Of a DNA stretch of 4,992 bases, positions 164-4,300 are shown in pieces. Both the position numbers and the translations under genes were made by a program. The notes beneath the pieces were generated by a model. It saw nothing but the letters and a program-made list of their open reading frames with translations. It ran no database searches and was not told where the DNA came from. Every line of letters begins with the position of its first letter. Position 1 is the first letter of the stretch. This DNA comes from a virus. Its lineage: Duplodnaviria; Heunggongvirae; Uroviricota; Caudoviricetes. The DNA is taken from the IMG/VR virus record IMGVR_UViG_2703718815_000007; one strand, written 5' to 3'.

Positions 164-1414
164 GTGATGACCGGATTCAAAATTATGAGCAGAGCACTTA
201 ACAAACTGAGCGATACACAGCTAAGAAAAATCAACGGCACACCAGCCCCAAAAACCACATTTCTTAATGACGGTGGAAACCTGAGCGTCAGGCATTCCAC
301 CAGCGGCCTGTTAACCTGGTATTTCACCTACAGGGCAGGAGCTGGACGCCAGGTATCACCGGAACGCCTGAAGCTGGGAAATTATCCTGATCTGAGCCTG
401 AAAGCAGCCAGGGAAAAAGCGGCACAGTGTCGCGCATGGCTGGCAGAAGGAAAAAATCCACGCCATGAGCTTAATTACTCCATACAGGAAGCACTAAAGC
501 CGGTAACGGTGGGCGATGCGATCAGCTACTGGCTGGAAATGCACGTAAAGGAAAACCGTGTCGATTACGTATGCCTGAAAAGCCGCCTTAATAATCACGT
601 CATACAGCATATTGGCAATATGCCACTGGATAAATGCGAGTTACGTCACTGGCTGGCCTGTTTTGACCGGATACGCAAAAAATCCCCCGTAACATCTGGC
701 CACATGATGCAGGCGTGTAAACAGGCGCTTAAGTTCTGCCGTAAACGTCGCTACGCAGTCAGTAACGTTCTGGATGATCTCAACGTGGTGGACGTTGGCA
801 AAAAGCCGGGCATAAGCGAACGCGTGCTAAGTAACAAAGAACTGGGCGAATTATTACAGGCACTGGATAAAAAAATATTCCCGCCCTACTACAGCGCGCT
901 AATCCGCCTCCTGATTGTGTTCGGCTGCCGAACCGGAGAACTGAGATTGTCGGAGATCAGGGAGTGGGATTTTAAGGAAATGCTCTGGACAGTACCGAAG
1001 GAGCACAGCAAAACGAAGGTCGCCATATTCAGGCCAATACCGGAAAGTATTTTACCGTTCGTCACACAGCTGGTGGAGCAGAACCGACACACAGGGCTAT
1101 TACTCGGGGAACTGAAACAGGAAGCCAGCGTGTCGCAATACGGCAGATTCACACACAAAAAATTAAACCATCCTCACTGGTCACTACACGATATACGGCG
1201 CACGTTTACCACGATGCTGAACGATTTAGGCGTGGATCCACATATTGTCGAGCAACTTACCGCCCACCAGATGCCAGGGATGCAGCGAGTCTATAACCAC
1301 TCCCGTTATCTCGATGCGAAACGTAATGCGCTGGACATGTGGACAGAGCGGTTAGAGATACTGGCGGGTACTCACGAAAACGTAACCACACTGCCAATAG
1401 CCAGAGAAATATAA
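164..1414 (+). CDS. int: tyrosine site-specific integrase, P4-type (N-terminal arm-binding domain plus catalytic domain)
   Basis: 416-aa ORF. N-terminus LSDTQLRK...DGGNLSV...GNYPDLSLKAAREKA matches the P4-family arm-binding pattern (LTDxxIRK...DGGGLYL...G.YP.VSLAEAR). Catalytic motifs present: GCRTGELRLSEI (TGxRxxE box), HDIRRT (HxxR), RVYNHSRYLDAKRNALDMW (YN..Y nucleophile region). No strong SD before any start; in-frame ATGs at 164, 167 and 185. ATG 185 (MSRALNKLSDTQ) gives the more typical spacing before the LSD motif, so the true start may be 185. Confidence 0.92.
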   Translation: MMTGFKIMSRALNKLSDTQLRKINGTPAPKTTFLNDGGNLSVRHSTSGLLTWYFTYRAGAGRQVSPERLKLGNYPDLSLKAAREKAAQCRAWLAEGKNPRHELNYSIQEALKPVTVGDAISYWLEMHVKENRVDYVCLKSRLNNHVIQHIGNMPLDKCELRHWLACFDRIRKKSPVTSGHMMQACKQALKFCRKRRYAVSNVLDDLNVVDVGKKPGISERVLSNKELGELLQALDKKIFPPYYSALIRLLIVFGCRTGELRLSEIREWDFKEMLWTVPKEHSKTKVAIFRPIPESILPFVTQLVEQNRHTGLLLGELKQEASVSQYGRFTHKKLNHPHWSLHDIRRTFTTMLNDLGVDPHIVEQLTAHQMPGMQRVYNHSRYLDAKRNALDMWTERLEILAGTHENVTTLPIAREI

Positions 1415-1790: not shown

Positions 1791-1979
1791 GTGTTAAGCA
1801 CAGATCGCTTTATACGTGAAAAAGAATGTCAGCAACTTACAGGCCTGAGCCGTTCATGTCGGTACCGCCTGGAAAAAACCGGACAATTCCCATCACGGCG
1901 TAAGCTCGGCGGTCGTTCCGTTGGCTGGTCTTTATCCGAAGTTCTGGCATGGAAGGAAAGCTGCGAGGCAGTTCACTAA
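1791..1979 (+). CDS. alpA: AlpA/Vis-family small HTH regulator (prophage transcriptional regulator / excisionase-like)
   Basis: 62-aa ORF with GTG start and strong SD. Sequence ...CQQLTGLSRSCRYRLEKTGQFPSRRKLGGRSVGWSLSEVLAWKES fits the AlpA-family pattern (HTH followed by ...G.RSVGW...EV..W). Placement immediately after a P4-type int is typical. Family call is by recollection, not search. Confidence 0.8.
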   Translation: MLSTDRFIREKECQQLTGLSRSCRYRLEKTGQFPSRRKLGGRSVGWSLSEVLAWKESCEAVH

Positions 1980-2031: not shown

Positions 2032-3312
2032 ATGAATACTGGATATTCTCCCGAACAAGGGCGGGGCTTCGTTCGTCCTGAAAAACAGAATCTGCAAAAT
2101 TTTGCCGAAATTATTCCGGTTATTTCCGGCCTTACTGGCGGGAGTGAAACCAATATTGTTAACGCCAGAGCGTTGCAGATGTTTGATGATAAAAAGGGAG
2201 TAAATTTAACTTACACCCCTGACGGCAATCAGAATATGAGCATTATCTCTGAGTCAGGTTTCTACAAACTAATAAAAACAAAAAGCGCCCCGTTGCCGGA
2301 GCGCCTTTGTGAACAATTAACCTACTGCGCAAAAAATGAATCTGAGCAGTGGGATTATATCAACCGTGTGGTGAAGCGCCACTATTGCCGGATAACAGGC
2401 AAAACAAAGGCGACCGCAAAAGGGTCGCCAGTGGGAACAAGGGAAAACAAAAGCATCACCAACAATGCCACATTTGCGGCTGGTGGGCAATGTGATCAGT
2501 CAGATTTGGTTCGTTCCAAGGTTTGCAACGAGAGTTTTTTCCTGCGCTCTTTAAGGAATTTCTCAAGAGCAAACGAACAAGGTGCGAATCTTTCTGATTC
2601 ATGCTCTATCTTTCTGCGCCGTCTTTTCCGTGTCGGTGATAATGTTTTGGTCAATTCTTTATCGGTCATTGTGTTGTCCTGCATAGCAATGCGCCGTAAT
2701 ACCTTACACCACGGCGCTGGTGATGGTTATTCCTGCTCTTTGGCCTTGCGACGCTGGCGGTATTCAACTTCTCGCTTTAATGCTGCTGTTACAAACTGCC
2801 CTGTACTTTCACCAGGCATTTTTACCGCCTCAACATTGTTCATAACTTCATGCGGAACCCTTGCCGCAACTGTTTGTGATTTTGCGTTTACTGCTTTTGT
2901 TGCCATGTTGTGTACCCCTTACAAAAAACAAATGCAGTATGCAGGAAAAAAAATAAGTGTTCAACACTTGACGTGTTTAACACCAGGGCTTAAATTGGTG
3001 TTCAACACCTTACTGATGCAAGGTGCAGAAACGACGAAACCCGGCAGTGCGCTAACACTAACCGGGCTTCTAACCACCAACGATAGAAAGCGTATCGAGG
3101 TAGCTATGAGAAATTATACCAGACACCCGCAAGGGCGGGACTCGTACAACCTGAATAAATACATCTGGCGTTTTATCGCCCTGAGCACGGCACAACCGCG
3201 CGTGATTACCATTGAGGCCACCAGCGAACAGGAAGCGCGTCAGCAATCTCCTGATGGCTGCGTGATGGTATTCGCTGCCCGTATTCGTCAGGGGGTACGC
3301 CATGTGCAATAA
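2032..3312 (+). CDS. uncertain 426-codon open frame, probably not a single gene; the first ~130 codons look protein-like, the middle looks like antisense read-through, the last 68 codons are the separate Icd/Kil-like ORF
   Basis: Seen: no stop in this frame from 2032 to 3312. Codons ~135-290 are Cys/Ser/Leu/Arg/Phe-rich, and this frame is wobble-aligned antisense to two minus-strand ORFs with their own RBS, promoter and terminators. The segment MSIISESGFYKLIKTKSAP resembles the Bro-N/antirepressor ISE.GLY.LI..S motif, but that is a weak by-eye resemblance. Two minus-oriented terminator hairpins lie inside it. Confidence 0.25.
   Translation: MNTGYSPEQGRGFVRPEKQNLQNFAEIIPVISGLTGGSETNIVNARALQMFDDKKGVNLTYTPDGNQNMSIISESGFYKLIKTKSAPLPERLCEQLTYCAKNESEQWDYINRVVKRHYCRITGKTKATAKGSPVGTRENKSITNNATFAAGGQCDQSDLVRSKVCNESFFLRSLRNFSRANEQGANLSDSCSIFLRRLFRVGDNVLVNSLSVIVLSCIAMRRNTLHHGAGDGYSCSLALRRWRYSTSRFNAAVTNCPVLSPGIFTASTLFITSCGTLAATVCDFAFTAFVAMLCTPYKKQMQYAGKKISVQHLTCLTPGLKLVFNTLLMQGAETTKPGSALTLTGLLTTNDRKRIEVAMRNYTRHPQGRDSYNLNKYIWRFIALSTAQPRVITIEATSEQEARQQSPDGCVMVFAARIRQGVRHVQ
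2271..2304 (-). terminator. candidate intrinsic terminator for leftward transcription (distal of two)
   Basis: GC-rich imperfect stem 2285-2292 with 2297-2304 (7 of 8 pairs), loop TTGC. On the minus strand it is followed by TTTTTGTTTTTATT (complement of 2271-2284). On the plus strand it is followed only by CTTTGTG. Confidence 0.4.
2401..2429 (-). terminator. candidate intrinsic terminator for the leftward RHH cassette (proximal)
   Basis: Perfect 7-bp stem GGCGACC (2409-2415) with GGTCGCC (2423-2429), 7-nt loop. On the minus strand it is followed by TTTGTTTT (complement of 2401-2408). It lies 66 nt beyond the stop of the 62-aa minus ORF. Confidence 0.55.
2496..2684 (-). CDS. small highly basic protein of unknown function, second gene of the leftward cassette
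   Basis: 62-aa ORF MQDNTMTDKELTKTLSPTRKRRRRKIEHESERFAPCSFALEKFLKERRKKLSLQTLERTKSD. The internal ATG at 2669 has AGGA 7 nt upstream, so the product is probably 57 aa. Protein-like K/E/R-rich composition, same strand as and just downstream of the RHH gene, followed by a terminator. No family recognised. Confidence 0.4.
   Translation of the reverse strand: MQDNTMTDKELTKTLSPTRKRRRRKIEHESERFAPCSFALEKFLKERRKKLSLQTLERTKSD
2727..2906 (-). CDS. Arc/MetJ-like ribbon-helix-helix DNA-binding protein, candidate repressor of the switch region
   Basis: 59-aa ORF, hand-translated (below the track's length cutoff): MATKAVNAKSQTVAARVPHEVMNNVEAVKMPGESTGQFVTAALKREVEYRQRRKAKEQE. Fits RHH layout: beta-strand (VAARVPHEV), helix A, G-x-S/T turn (PGESTG), helix B (QFVTAALKREVE), basic tail. 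SD AAGGGG 8 nt upstream of the ATG. Fold assignment is by eye. Confidence 0.6.
   Translation of the reverse strand: MATKAVNAKSQTVAARVPHEVMNNVEAVKMPGESTGQFVTAALKREVEYRQRRKAKEQE
2936..2964 (-). promoter_or_regulatory. candidate sigma70 promoter for the leftward RHH cassette
   Basis: On the minus strand: TTGAAC (complement of 2959-2964, inside operator site 1), 17-bp spacer, CATACT (complement of 2936-2941). This gives a leader of about 23 nt carrying the AAGGGG SD. Confidence 0.35.
2955..3009. promoter_or_regulatory. operator array: three palindromes sharing the core GTGTT-N-AACAC
   Basis: Site 1 at 2955-2969 AAGTGTT-C-AACACTT (7-bp arms); site 2 at 2973-2983 GTGTT-T-AACAC; site 3 at 2997-3009 GGTGTT-C-AACACC (6-bp arms). 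The sites overlap both candidate promoters. Confidence 0.65.
2968..2996 (+). promoter_or_regulatory. candidate sigma70 promoter for the rightward icd-like/replication operon
   Basis: TTGACG (2968-2973), 17-bp spacer, TAAATT (2991-2996). Operator site 2 sits in the spacer and site 3 at the predicted start. The 5' UTR would be about 100 nt to ATG 3106. Confidence 0.4.
3106..3312 (+). CDS. small protein, first gene of the rightward operon; possibly Icd/Kil-like (positional analogue of P4 kil)
   Basis: 68 aa: MRNYTRHPQGRDSYNLNKYIWRFIALSTAQPRVITIEATSEQEARQQSPDGCVMVFAARIRQGVRHVQ. SD GAGG 5 nt upstream. The in-frame ATG at 3016 has no SD and lies about 13 nt from the predicted start, so it is disfavoured. 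The Icd-like label is from memory of annotations in P4-like prophages and is low-certainty. Confidence 0.5.
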   Translation: MRNYTRHPQGRDSYNLNKYIWRFIALSTAQPRVITIEATSEQEARQQSPDGCVMVFAARIRQGVRHVQ

Positions 3313-3769
3313 CACCCGTCCGGACGCAGCCGCCGAAGCCATCAAAACGCTGATGCACGCGCTGATTGATATTTCTGTTATCGCAGACAAGGCGCATAAG
3401 CACGCCACCAGCGAAACAGAATATGCCGGGGCTTTCGTTCCTCACTCACTGGCTGTTATGCAATTTAGTGCTGATATGGCACTGAATGAGGCCAGGGCTA
3501 TCCTGATTGCTGATTGTGAAAATGGGGGGGGGGTTATGCGTGATGATCGTTTTAATGCCCTGAAACAGGAATTTTATGGCGCACCGGATGATACAGGCGA
3601 TGCGTTGCTGGTTGTTAATGACCTGATAAAGGCCGCATGTTTTTTAATTGGAACCGCTGAACATTCAGGAACCGGCAACGATATTCTTATTATTGCGTCG
3701 GATTATGCTGAATATGTGGCAGAGGCGCGTTACAGAAGAAAATTCCCGGAGAATGTAAGCCATGTGTGA
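3302..3769 (+). CDS. hypothetical protein (155 aa), translationally coupled to the upstream ORF; contains an in-frame G10 tract
   Basis: ATG 3302 overlaps the upstream stop (3310-3312). Strong SD AGGGGG at 3290-3295, 6 nt upstream. Protein-like composition. No family recognised. Confidence 0.65.
   Translation: MCNNTRPDAAAEAIKTLMHALIDISVIADKAHKHATSETEYAGAFVPHSLAVMQFSADMALNEARAILIADCENGGGVMRDDRFNALKQEFYGAPDDTGDALLVVNDLIKAACFLIGTAEHSGTGNDILIIASDYAEYVAEARYRRKFPENVSHV
3524..3533 (+). repeat. homopolymeric G10 tract inside the 155-aa ORF (encodes GGG)
   Basis: Ten consecutive G read directly. G9 or G11 would give a stop within about 10 codons. Confidence 0.9.
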
Positions 3770-4000: not shown

Positions 4001-4300
4001 ATGAAACAGAAAATTTCTGGCTTTACTGCCAGCGGCCCCGCTCGGCCTGAAATCCGCCCCGGCGATATTTTCCGGGATAACTACGGCGGCACGGTAACGA
4101 TTAAAAGCGTGGCGGGACGGTGCGTTACTTACCGCCGTGATGGGTACGGCTATGACTGTGTGATGCCTGTTTATCAGTTCCGGCGTGATTTTTCACTGAT
4201 ACAGGCCACACCACGCAAACAGCCCACCAGCAACGCAAAGGCACGGGCAAATATTCAGAAAATGAAAAGCATGATTAACGCATTCAGGGGCAAAAAATGA
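4001..4300 (+). CDS. hypothetical protein (99 aa) with a basic C-terminal tail
   Basis: Starts 5 nt after the upstream stop; its stop overlaps the next start (ATGA at 4297-4300). Core GDIFRDNYGGTVTIKSVAGRCVTYRRDGYGYDCVMPVYQF looks like a small beta-rich domain, followed by a K/R-rich tail. No family recognised. Confidence 0.6.
   Translation: MKQKISGFTASGPARPEIRPGDIFRDNYGGTVTIKSVAGRCVTYRRDGYGYDCVMPVYQFRRDFSLIQATPRKQPTSNAKARANIQKMKSMINAFRGKK

What the first reader, a model, noticed from the sequence alone, without database searches (positions are those of the whole stretch)
2496..2906. RHH gene followed by a very basic 57-62 aa ORF: regulator pair, antitoxin-toxin-like layout, or a spurious second ORF
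Seen: the RHH ORF (2906..2727) is followed on the same strand, after a 42-57 bp gap, by an ORF encoding a KRRRRK-containing basic protein with AGGA 7 nt before its second ATG, then the terminator. An RHH-first two-gene layout recalls antitoxin-toxin cassettes, but the second protein does not resemble RelE/ParE/CcdB by eye. It could be a nucleic-acid-binding accessory protein, or simply 3' UTR.
Basis: partly seen in the sequence, partly recalled or inferred. Interest (0 to 1): 0.4.

Follow-up and report, generated by a model that had tools for sequence, protein, structure and literature searches.

The report
Small basic gene beside satellite repressor
The second small ORF is a real, conserved 57-residue protein gene, co-transcribed with the probable repressor of an E. 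coli phage satellite (PICI); it is not a toxin, and both genes lie antisense inside a long reading frame that is kept free of stop codons.

Summary
A 59-aa YlcI/YnfO-family gene (2906..2727, minus strand) is followed, after a 57-nt spacer containing a hairpin, by a basic ORF and then an intrinsic terminator.

The ORF is real, with its conserved start at the second ATG (2669), giving 57 aa. Across 67 unique alleles, substitutions are filtered by whether they are synonymous in this frame (p=0.018), not in the overlapping antisense frame (p=0.82). Its ATG and AGG are invariant. In a sample found by DNA pattern it was intact in 67 loci, cleanly absent in 7-8, and never decayed.

It is not a toxin-antitoxin pair. 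The same ORF sits behind at least three upstream-gene types and eight operator specificities. The upstream gene stands alone in Salmonella and Xenorhabdus.

The window is an E. coli phage-inducible chromosomal island (PICI). The upstream protein is probably its repressor: three GTG-N5-CAC operators co-vary with its recognition residues.

ORF2 is an optional, Escherichia-restricted cargo gene. It encodes a disordered Arg/Lys-rich segment plus one amphipathic helix. Its biochemical function is unknown.

Unexpectedly, both genes lie antisense inside an alpA-coupled long ORF (2032..3312) ending in an Icd-like domain. This resembles phage P4 eta/kil, and the frame is kept stop-free across genera.

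The parts
2727..2906 (-). YlcI/YnfO-family small DNA-binding protein (59 aa), probably RHH; likely the island's immunity repressor.
   Evidence: NF041551 E 2.1e-16, phrog_949 E 4.7e-22. Purifying selection acts in this frame, p=1.4e-7. Residues 10-16 co-vary with the operator core. AF2 model: extended segment, helix 19-28, GEST turn, helix 35-58.
2691..2717 (-). Conserved GC-rich hairpin (GCGCCGT...ACGGCGC) inside the invariant 57-nt RHH-ORF2 spacer. It has no U-tract, so it is not a terminator.
   Evidence: The basal 5-7 bp are kept, and several variants change to G.U pairs that work only in the sense RNA. Its function was not tested.
2677..2680 (-). Shine-Dalgarno-like AGGA for ORF2, 7 nt upstream of the ATG.
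   Evidence: AGG is invariant in all 43 spacer variants, while the 7 nt between it and the ATG vary.
2496..2669 (-). ORF2: 57-aa basic protein (MTDKELTKTLSPTRKRRRRKIEHESERFAPCSFALEKFLKERRKKLSLQTLERTKSD). The conserved start is the second ATG. The upstream ATG at 2684 would give the 62-aa form.
   Evidence: phrog_21027 E 2e-13. 43 protein clusters. Core pN/pS 0.26. Synonymous-in-ORF2 effect p=0.018 against antisense p=0.82. Intact in 67 of 67 loci where present. PGAP calls it WP_000130015.1 in CFT073. AF2: disordered N-terminal part plus one helix.
2478..2492 (+). Conserved 15-mer GGCTGGTGGGCAATG containing a Chi octamer (2479-2486), 4 nt past the ORF2 stop codon.
2399..2429 (-). Intrinsic terminator of the RHH-ORF2 transcript (GGCGACC-loop-GGTCGCC plus TTTGTTTTGC). 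It is unidirectional. In compact relatives its U-tract abuts the start codon of the long antisense ORF.
2957..3009 (.). Three operator-like repeats GTGTT(C/T)AACAC (2957-2968, 2973-2984, 2998-3009) of the form GTG-N5-CAC, between the divergent promoters.
   Evidence: The central 5 nt co-vary with RHH residues 10-16 in at least 8 types.
2936..2964 (-). Inferred leftward promoter for RHH-ORF2 (TTGAAC, 17 nt, CATACT; TATACT in relatives).
   Evidence: Read from the sequence. It falls below the scan threshold, so this is inference only.
2968..2996 (+). Promoter-like site TTGACG-17-TAAATT for the rightward Icd-like/replication operon, overlapped by the operators.
2032..3312 (+). Long ORF (426 codons) running antisense through ORF2, the spacer, RHH and the promoter region into the Icd-like domain. 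It is an analogue of P4 eta. Its 5' part is a Bro-N/Ant-like remnant.
   Evidence: The frame is stop-free over RHH..ORF2 in 95 of 98 unique relatives. 317 nt that are non-coding on the minus strand are open, P=0.0028. A conserved SD and ATG follow alpA directly. There is no amino-acid-level selection in this frame over ORF2 or RHH.
3106..3312 (+). Icd-like protein (68 aa), nested in the same frame as the long ORF. It is the counterpart of P4 Kil.
   Evidence: NF033153 E 1e-19. The P4 ORF 8168-8584 matches the same model at E 7.8e-21.
1791..1979 (+). alpA, the PICI activator, convergent with RHH-ORF2.
   Evidence: PF05930 E 2.7e-18. Its role is taken from PMC6092414.

Best explanation
The window is the regulatory zone of an E. 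coli phage-inducible chromosomal island (PICI) of the EcCICFT073/EcCIEDL933 type. Its closest relative sits inside a prophage terminase gene.

Shown:
- ORF2 is a genuine 57-codon gene.
- It lies on one strand behind the YlcI/YnfO (RHH-type) gene, with no terminator between them and one intrinsic terminator after it.
- It has its own conserved SD and ATG.
- Selection acts on its amino-acid sequence.
- It is optional and confined to Escherichia/Shigella.

Inferred:
- The RHH protein is the island's immunity repressor. It would bind three GTG-N5-CAC operators, shutting off the rightward Icd-like/replication operon and regulating its own promoter.
- ORF2 is a cargo gene riding on this constitutively expressed 'quiescent-state' transcript.
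- Its product has a disordered Arg/Lys-rich segment and one conserved amphipathic helix (PC-FALE-FLKEY). It most likely tethers to nucleic acid through the basic tract and contacts a partner protein through the helix.
- It would act as an accessory factor of the silent island, for example in modulating or excluding a phage. It does not act as a partner of the RHH protein or as a toxin.

The same DNA has a second job. On the opposite strand it forms part of a long ORF that starts at a strong SD and ATG just after alpA. This ORF runs through ORF2, RHH and the promoters, and in most E. coli elements continues in frame into the Icd-like domain. Only its openness is under selection. By analogy with P4 eta/kil, ribosomes translating it after alpA activation would carry transcription through the convergent repressor operon into the replication genes.
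For: ORF2 is a real gene:
- pN/pS is 0.26 in the ORF2 frame over core codons 24-45, against 0.54-1.41 in the other five frames.
- In a logistic model of 347 possible changes over 67 unique alleles, being synonymous in ORF2 matters (p=0.018). Being synonymous in the antisense frame does not (p=0.82). The RHH positive control gives p=1.4e-7 and 0.87.
- ATG and AGG are invariant in 43 spacer variants, while the bases between them vary.
- Loci fished with a flanking DNA 15-mer gave 67 intact copies, 7-8 clean absences and no decayed copy.
- Protein-ascertained loci were 180 of 180 open, with one C-terminal frameshift.
- PGAP annotates the gene in CFT073.
- It is present in 1503 of 5426 complete E. 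coli genomes.

ORF2 is restricted and optional:
- One hit among the representatives of 185,579 species.
- Ten representatives among 1.8 billion proteins.
- RHH stands alone in Salmonella and Xenorhabdus; Klebsiella has an 84-aa ORF instead.
- Two loci carry other 63-69-aa ORFs in the same slot that share the KFALD-F motif.

Shape: AF2 gives a disordered N-terminal part and one helix, with pLDDT 92 over residues 41-50.

RHH as repressor: three repeats lie between the divergent promoters, and the operator core co-varies with RHH residues 10-16 in at least 8 types.

Long antisense ORF.

Homology to P4 eta/kil through the Icd-like domain. The P4 mechanism is as described in PMC10111431.

PMC6092414 states that a global repressor of Gram-negative PICIs is 'unclear'.
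Against: - There is no direct evidence of transcription, translation or activity of ORF2.
- The selection signal is modest (p about 0.02) and the alleles are phylogenetically related.
- Third codon positions of ORF2 and the antisense ORF coincide. Periodicity, in-frame indels and openness of ORF2 therefore do not by themselves separate the two frames. Given the protein sequences, the antisense frame over ORF2 would be open by chance in 44-90% of synonymous recodings.
- The basic tract is not fixed in position. P0049 has it at the C-terminus. The N-terminal half shows no frame-specific constraint (pN/pS 0.67).
- No family, structure or defence-system match gives a function.
- The leftward promoter is weak by consensus and was not found by the scan.
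- The long ORF is not in frame with the Icd-like gene in about a third of unique E. coli relatives, nor in Salmonella.
Confidence: 0.6

Rival explanations
1. Type II toxin-antitoxin cassette: the RHH protein is the antitoxin and autorepressor, and ORF2 is a small toxin.
For: The gene order (RHH first, small second gene, single terminator) matches the TA layout. The basic ORF2 protein could in principle be harmful.
Against: - No hit to any toxin family in Pfam, NCBIfam, PADLOC or PDB sequences.
- The predicted product is a disordered tract plus one helix, not a toxin fold.
- The same ORF2 alleles follow YlcI-type genes of eight specificities, Arc-like genes and 150-aa upstream genes with different C-termini. 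A specific neutralising interface is therefore unlikely.
- RHH occurs without any second gene in Salmonella, Xenorhabdus and 7-8 E. coli loci.
- The genes are separated by an invariant 57-nt structured spacer rather than being coupled.
- The operators sit on a divergent promoter pair that controls the replication operon.
Confidence: 0.04
2. ORF2 is not translated. It is a 'shadow' frame of the long antisense ORF, or simply the 3' UTR of the RHH mRNA.
For: - PGAP leaves it unannotated in the closest relative and in many genomes, or annotates the opposite strand instead.
- Wobble positions of both frames coincide, so a shadow frame could stay open fairly easily.
- In-frame indels are equally explained by the antisense ORF.
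Against: - Substitution filtering follows the ORF2 code, not the antisense code.
- The base opposite the G of ORF2's ATG is a wobble position of the antisense codon. It is invariant while that codon's first base varies.
- AGG is invariant at SD distance.
- The core motif FALE-FL-K is kept in distant alleles, and in different cargo ORFs with different DNA.
Confidence: 0.1
3. The main function of the ORF2 segment is at the RNA level. It lengthens the RHH transcript so that this transcript is antisense to the 5' part of the alpA-coupled long ORF up to its start codon. This would add antisense pairing or transcriptional interference. The peptide would be secondary.
For: - The transcript ends at a terminator whose U-tract abuts the long ORF's ATG.
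- The transcription units are convergent.
- The conserved spacer hairpin has G.U variants compatible only with the sense RNA.
Against: - Elements without ORF2 keep the same terminator and still overlap the long ORF's 5' end, so ORF2 is not needed for the overlap.
- Amino-acid-level selection on ORF2 is not explained by a purely RNA role.
- This rival is compatible with the best explanation rather than exclusive of it.
Confidence: 0.15
4. ORF2 is an N/Nun-like arginine-rich-motif RNA-binding protein. It would act on the adjacent hairpin (autoregulation) or on helper-phage nut RNA (exclusion or antitermination).
For: An Arg-rich tract RKRRRRK lies near the N-terminus, followed by a helix. A conserved RNA hairpin lies immediately upstream. 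That HK022 Nun is a prophage-expressed ARM protein is from my own knowledge, not tested here.
Against: - The basic tract varies in sequence and position among homologues (KKQRKN; KGQRKK; C-terminal RRRKK in P0049).
- The hairpin has a 5-7 bp base and a loop of 5 or more nt. It is not a boxB-type 5-bp stem with a GNRA-like pentaloop, and its fold is not better than shuffles (z=-0.63).
- There is no homology to N or Nun.
Confidence: 0.08

Closest known systems
Phage P4 vis-eta/kil region (nested genes with an internal promoter; immunity region of the satellite)
   Same: - A long ORF begins at the end of the alpA/vis homologue.
- It ends in an Icd-like domain (NF033153 in both).
- A shorter C-terminal product is expressed from an internal promoter-like site.
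- It lies upstream of the primase operon.
- The P4 mechanism (translation of eta prevents termination) is as summarised in PMC10111431.
   Different: - P4 immunity is RNA-based (CI/seqA). No C4/isrK-type Rfam match is found here.
- This island instead carries a divergently transcribed protein operon (RHH plus ORF2), embedded antisense within the long ORF, with protein operators. This is not annotated in P4.
- The amino-acid sequence of the long ORF is unconstrained over that stretch.
Gram-negative PICIs EcCICFT073 / EcCIEDL933 (Fillol-Salom et al. 2018, PMC6092414) and helper-embedded PICIs (PMC10111431)
   Same: - Same gene order: int, alpA, Bro zone, Icd-like, DUF4222, primase.
- ORF2 and the RHH gene are present in CFT073 itself and in O157:H7.
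- The nearest relative is inserted in a prophage terminase gene.
   Different: Those papers describe AlpA as the activator and call a global repressor 'unclear'. In the texts I read, they do not describe the RHH-ORF2 operon, its operators or its antisense nesting.
P22 immI Arc/Mnt and other RHH phage repressors
   Same: - A small RHH-type repressor with short repeated operators at divergent promoters.
- Arc-like proteins (phrog_228; weak Mnt/NikR matches) replace the YlcI-type gene in some relatives.
   Different: The RHH fold of the YlcI/YnfO protein is not confirmed. There is no ant gene downstream. The second gene, ORF2, has no counterpart in immI.
Type II toxin-antitoxin modules with RHH antitoxins (RelBE, ParDE, CcdAB, omega-epsilon-zeta)
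   Same: The gene order is small DNA-binding protein first, small second gene, with likely autoregulation.
   Different: See the membership test. There is no toxin family match, no obligate pairing, and a structured 57-nt spacer. The operators control a second, divergent operon.

Membership tests
Type II toxin-antitoxin module | The second gene encodes a member of a known toxin family or fold. | tested here: not met
   No hits in Pfam, NCBIfam, PADLOC or PDB sequences. AF2 predicts a disordered tract plus a single helix.
Type II toxin-antitoxin module | Antitoxin and toxin form an obligate, co-evolving pair. | tested here: not met
   ORF2 alleles combine freely with at least 8 YlcI specificities, Arc-like genes and 150-aa upstream genes. 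The upstream gene occurs alone.
Type II toxin-antitoxin module | Toxicity of the second product is neutralised by the first. | not testable with these tools
   Requires expression experiments.
YlcI/YnfO family (NCBIfam NF041551) - first gene | Score above the curated cutoff over the N-terminal domain model. | tested here: met
   59.7 bits against a cutoff of 30, residues 9-50, model positions 1-42 of 42.
Ribbon-helix-helix superfamily - first gene | Beta-strand, helix, G-x-S/T turn and helix topology, with structural similarity to solved RHH proteins. | tested here: inconclusive
   AF2 gives an extended segment 10-17, helix 19-28, PGEST turn and helix 35-58. Foldseek against PDB has no hit below E=4. 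hhalign to the Arc-like replacements gives probability 31% in the expected register. The Arc-like set weakly matches Mnt and NikR.
phrog_21027 (unknown function) - ORF2 | Significant match to the profile. | tested here: met
   E 2e-13, residues 6-52 of the 62-aa form, profile positions 1-49 of 65.
P4 eta/kil-type nested gene - long plus-strand ORF | C-terminal Icd-like domain shared with P4 Eta/Kil. | tested here: met
   NF033153: window E 1e-19, and 2e-18 for the 426-aa ORF. P4 ORF 8168-8584 E 7.8e-21.
P4 eta/kil-type nested gene - long plus-strand ORF | The long ORF starts at or next to the stop of the vis/alpA homologue (translational coupling). | tested here: met
   In compact relatives, and in Salmonella, the SD GGGGGAG and ATG lie within about 10 nt of the alpA stop. 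In this window a Bro-N remnant is fused in, and the ATG is 53 nt after alpA. P4 eta overlaps vis.
P4 eta/kil-type nested gene - long plus-strand ORF | RNA immunity factor (CI/seqA; Rfam C4 or isrK) inside the ORF. | tested here: not met
   At E<=1, Rfam gives only a sub-threshold symR-like hit (32.8 bits against a gathering score of 61) on the opposite strand.
P4 eta/kil-type nested gene - long plus-strand ORF | Translation of the long ORF prevents premature transcription termination. | not testable with these tools
   Only the indirect signature is seen: the frame is kept stop-free without amino-acid constraint.
Lambda N / HK022 Nun arginine-rich-motif proteins - ORF2 | A conserved N-terminal ARM and a cognate boxB-type hairpin. 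| tested here: not met
   The basic tract is variable and displaced in homologues. The hairpin is not boxB-like, and its fold z-score is -0.63.

The most novel reading that the evidence does not exclude
The YlcI/YnfO (RHH-type) protein is the long-sought master or immunity repressor of Gram-negative PICIs, and it exists in at least eight operator specificities. Its operon, with ORF2 as optional cargo, is nested antisense inside a translated, alpA-coupled eta-like ORF whose only constraint is to stay open. Induction would then be a head-on contest: ribosome-protected transcription from the alpA promoter against the convergent repressor operon. ORF2 would be a dual-use sequence, protein-coding on one strand and a translated 'spacer' on the other.
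Probability: 0.4. Interest if true: 0.75.

Novelty: new variant of a known kind. Interest (0 to 1): 0.5.

Why it matters
PICIs are abundant satellites in E. coli. This module is present in 28% of complete E. coli genomes. How the Gram-negative PICIs are kept silent has been described as unclear.

The analysis produces a concrete, testable candidate for the repressor, its operators and its immunity types. It also identifies a small orphan protein that automated annotation treats inconsistently: unannotated, 'hypothetical', or overwritten by an opposite-strand call.

The region is also a clean natural example of antisense-overlapping reading frames. One strand is selected for its protein sequence and the other only for the absence of stop codons. 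This is relevant to gene-calling practice and to models of translation-coupled antitermination in satellites. ORF2's own biochemical role remains open.

Tried and rejected
- **Stop-codon read-through.** RHH and ORF2 are in the same frame with no stop in the window's spacer. Rejected because relatives L007, L010 and L013 have in-frame stops in the spacer.
- **In-frame indels and third-position periodicity as proof of coding.** Set aside after finding that the antisense long ORF shares wobble positions and also requires 3n indels. Replaced by the two-frame substitution model.
- **Counting antisense-stop-creating changes against a consensus.** This worked for ORF2 (0 of 14). It is unreliable for the more divergent RHH set (5 of 20), so direct stop counts were used instead.
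- **Remote homology for ORF2.** Pfam, NCBIfam, PADLOC and a PDB profile search gave nothing. tblastn against phages gave nothing. The search of 1.8 billion representatives returned only the same small family plus two repetitive long proteins.
- **Fold search.** Not run for ORF2, because a single helix is not informative. For RHH it gave nothing significant.
- **Rfam.** No C4/isrK/CI-type RNA.
- **Kissing interaction.** The spacer-hairpin loop and the Icd leader share a 7-nt complement. This was judged chance-level and not pursued.
- **Literature.** No paper in the library names these proteins.
Full report
**1. Observation**

The window reads as described.
- A 59-codon ORF lies on the minus strand at 2906..2727.
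- A second minus-strand ORF at 2684..2496 is 62 codons from the first ATG, or 57 from the second ATG at 2669.
- AGGA sits 7 nt before the second ATG.
- The protein contains a TRKRRRRKI tract.
- A stem-loop at 2429..2409 is followed by TTTGTTTTGC.

The first protein is a YlcI/YnfO-family member (NF041551, 59.7 bits against a cutoff of 30; phrog_949). The second has no Pfam or NCBIfam match but hits phrog_21027, a family of unknown function, at E 2e-13.

**2. Context**

The window carries, in order:
- a tyrosine integrase (164-1414);
- AlpA (1791-1979);
- a Bro-N/Ant-like remnant starting at 2032;
- the two minus-strand genes;
- an Icd-like gene (3106-3312);
- a DUF4222 gene and an AAA_25 (RepA-type) replication helicase.

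This is the layout of Gram-negative phage-inducible chromosomal islands. The same module is present in CFT073, home of the prototype EcCICFT073. There PGAP annotates ORF2 as hypothetical protein WP_000130015.1. It is also present in O157:H7. In the 99.8%-identical relative, and in another relative, the island sits inside a prophage terminase gene. That is the helper-embedded configuration described in PMC10111431. The spacer plus ORF2 segment occurs in 1503 of 5426 complete E. coli genomes, with up to six copies per genome.

**3. Is ORF2 a gene?**

A protein search found 43 clusters of 57-72 residues at 62-100% identity, all from Escherichia or Shigella. They share the start MTDKE (the second ATG), a variable basic tract and a conserved core ERFAPC-FALE-FLKEY.

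Across 15 unique coding sequences, Nei-Gojobori pN/pS over core codons 24-45 is 0.26 in the ORF2 frame and 0.54-1.41 in the other five frames. The N-terminal half shows no frame preference (0.67).

This needed a stricter test. One antisense frame is also open (section 5), and its third codon positions coincide with those of ORF2. Periodicity, in-frame indels and mere openness therefore do not discriminate between the two frames.

I classified all 347 possible single-base changes in codons 1-46 by whether each is synonymous in ORF2 and in the antisense frame. I then asked which ones are seen among 67 unique alleles.
- Synonymous in both frames: 33 of 60 observed.
- Synonymous only in ORF2: 9 of 22.
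- Synonymous only in the antisense frame: 8 of 32.
- Synonymous in neither: 68 of 233.

In a logistic model with a transition term, the ORF2 term is significant (p=0.018) and the antisense term is not (p=0.82). The same test on the upstream gene, used as a positive control, gives p=1.4e-7 and 0.87.

Independent support comes from three directions.
- The ATG and an AGG at Shine-Dalgarno distance are invariant in 43 spacer variants, while the bases between them vary. The base opposite the G of the ATG is a wobble position of the antisense codon, yet it never changes.
- Loci retrieved with a flanking DNA 15-mer, and therefore blind to the state of the ORF, gave 67 intact copies, 7-8 loci where the spacer plus ORF2 is cleanly missing, and none with a decayed copy.
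- Among 180 protein-ascertained loci, only one has a C-terminal frameshift.

I conclude that ORF2 is a real gene (about 85% confidence) whose product is 57 residues.

**4. What kind of pair is it?**

The upstream gene is interchangeable. The same ORF2 and the same 57-nt spacer follow three types of upstream gene:
- YlcI-type genes of at least eight kinds;
- Arc-like genes (phrog_228);
- a 150-residue YlcI-like gene.

ORF2's N-terminal and tail variants assort freely with these types.

In Salmonella and Xenorhabdus islands the YlcI-type gene stands alone before the convergent alpA. In Klebsiella it is followed by an unrelated 84-codon ORF. Two E. coli-type loci carry other 63-69-codon ORFs in the slot that share only a KFALD-F motif.

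In alleles with the third tail type, the spacer plus ORF2 unit is flanked by a direct repeat of the 3' end of the upstream gene (AAAGAGCAGGAATAG). The ORF2-less loci look like the recombination product between those repeats.

Together with the absence of any toxin-family match, this rules out a toxin-antitoxin reading for practical purposes. Read-through fusion of the two same-frame ORFs is excluded by in-frame stops in the spacer of several relatives.

The upstream protein looks like a repressor. Three repeats GTGTT(C/T)AACAC lie between a rightward promoter-like site (TTGACG-17-TAAATT, 2968-2996) and the inferred leftward promoter. Across relatives the repeats keep the form GTG-N5-CAC in the same positions. 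Their central five bases change together with residues 10-16 of the protein, the segment expected to be the DNA-reading strand. Examples:

| Protein residues | Operator |
|---|---|
| QTVAA | GTGTTGAACAC |
| QALKA | GTGTGGCCCAC |
| KKLEA | GTGTCAGCCAC |
| QSVTA | GTGTAAGACAC |

This is the pattern of immunity specificities. [quoted passage not shown] I found no paper naming this protein in that role.

The RHH fold itself is only moderately supported.

**5. The opposite strand**

The plus strand has a 426-codon ORF (2032-3312). It runs antisense through ORF2, the spacer, the upstream gene and the promoter region, and ends as the Icd-like protein.
- Over the RHH..ORF2 segment this frame has no stop in 95 of 98 unique relatives, while the other two antisense frames have 1-15 stops.
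- It is also open in the ORF2-less loci and in the loci with different cargo.
- Given the encoded proteins, synonymous recoding leaves it open in only 5-45% of trials per lineage.
- The 317 nt that are non-coding on the minus strand are stop-free with P=0.0028.

In compact relatives the ORF starts at a strong SD and ATG (GGGGGAGTGATGGCACATAAAACAAAGGCGACC) within about 10 nt of the alpA stop. The same arrangement holds in Salmonella. Klebsiella and Xenorhabdus also have a single open frame from the alpA side across the antisense of the YlcI gene.

Phage P4 has the counterpart. The ORF downstream of vis (8812/8584..8168) carries the same Icd-like domain (E 7.8e-21) and overlaps the end of vis. 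As summarised in PMC10111431:
- this P4 gene, eta, contains an internal constitutive promoter;
- Kil is its C-terminal short form;
- translation of full-length Eta from the upstream late promoter prevents termination.

The PICI ORF therefore looks like an eta analogue. The differences are two. No C4/isrK-type immunity RNA is detected. And a protein repressor operon is embedded antisense within it.

Over that stretch the long ORF shows no amino-acid-level constraint. What is selected appears to be translatability. In about a third of unique E. coli relatives, and in Salmonella, the ORF ends in the leader rather than in frame with the Icd-like gene. The fusion is therefore not essential.

**6. 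What ORF2 probably does**

AlphaFold predicts a disordered first half containing the basic tract, then a single helix with highest confidence over ALEKFLKERR.

The family is tiny: ten representatives among 1.8 billion proteins, and one hit among the representative genomes of 185,579 species. In one homologue the basic cluster has moved to the C-terminus, while the PC-FALE-FLKEY core is unchanged.

The most economical reading is an optional cargo gene expressed from the repressor's transcript in the quiescent island. Its conserved helix would contact a partner, and its movable basic tract would give nucleic-acid affinity. Genes co-transcribed with prophage repressors are often exclusion or modulation functions; that comparison rests on general knowledge, not on a test made here.

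An RNA-level contribution cannot be excluded and is not exclusive. It would work by extending the antisense overlap with the long ORF up to its start codon, where the ORF2 terminator ends.

An N/Nun-like RNA-binding role is weakly supported. The basic tract is not conserved, and the adjacent hairpin is not boxB-like.

**7. Verdict**

The finding is real, and its 'spurious ORF' and 'toxin' readings are rejected.
- ORF2 on its own is a lineage-restricted orphan of unknown function, of moderate interest.
- The surrounding architecture is more interesting: a candidate PICI repressor with co-varying operators, nested antisense in an eta-like ORF kept open across genera. It is directly testable.
- I rate the whole as a new variant of a known kind (P4-type satellite regulatory region), with interest 0.5.

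Noticed in passing
window 297-304(-), 1069-1076(+), 2479-2486(+), 3218-3225(-), 3405-3412(-), 4224-4231(-): There are six exact Chi octamers (GCTGGTGG) in 4992 nt, against 0.14 expected from shuffles; 0 of 200 shuffles reach 6. The E. coli average is roughly one per 4.5 kb (my own knowledge). The copy at 2479-2486 is conserved in relatives just past the ORF2 stop. This may protect concatemeric or linear island DNA from RecBCD.
   Followed up: partly
window 3033-3105 (-): The minus-strand RNA across the Icd-like ribosome-binding site and start codon folds into two strong hairpins (-36.5 kcal/mol, z=-6.1, 0 of 200 shuffles as stable). It gives a sub-threshold symR-like Rfam hit (32.8 bits against a gathering score of 61). 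It is a candidate cis-antisense RNA against the Icd-like gene, or alternatively a structured plus-strand leader.
   Followed up: partly
window 2032-3312 (+); L007, L010, L013, L009, L303 near the alpA stop: A long ORF antisense to the repressor operon is kept stop-free in 95 of 98 unique relatives. It starts at a conserved SD and ATG right after alpA in several genera, and it resembles P4 eta/kil. Gene callers annotate it inconsistently: as 'Icd-like', as a 'BRO-N pseudogene', as a 247-514-aa hypothetical protein, or not at all.
   Followed up: yes
window 2957-3009 and the equivalent regions of relatives: The operator repeats GTG-N5-CAC occur in at least eight sequence types. These types co-vary with residues 10-16 of the YlcI/YnfO protein, which implies immunity-type diversification among E. 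coli PICIs.
   Followed up: yes
L264, L291, L193, L203, L210, L231, L254 (IMG/VR loci); L005 tail: Natural ORF2-less alleles have the RHH stop joined directly to CCCACCAGCAAGCCAGCACACTGATCACATTGCCC. In alleles with the 'KEQE*' tail, the spacer plus ORF2 unit is bounded by a direct repeat of the RHH 3' end. This suggests gain or loss by recombination between the repeats.
   Followed up: partly
L001 1-4539; L300 1-1741: In the closest relatives the island's integrase directly follows a truncated prophage terminase large-subunit gene. This indicates a helper-embedded PICI of the kind described in PMC10111431. The window itself starts only 163 nt before int, so its own insertion site is not visible.
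   Followed up: no
window 2032-2420 (+): The 5' part of the long ORF is only a weak, partial Bro-N/Ant match (Pfam E 0.0094; phrog anti-repressor hits about 1e-5). It appears to be a remnant fused in frame to the eta-like ORF. PGAP marks the equivalent in relatives as a C-terminally incomplete pseudogene.
   Followed up: partly
L304 2692-2946; L263 and L218 cargo ORFs: The slot behind the repressor gene carries different small orphan ORFs in other lineages: 84 aa in Klebsiella, and 63-69 aa with a KFALD-F motif in two IMG/VR loci. None has a family match.
   Followed up: partly
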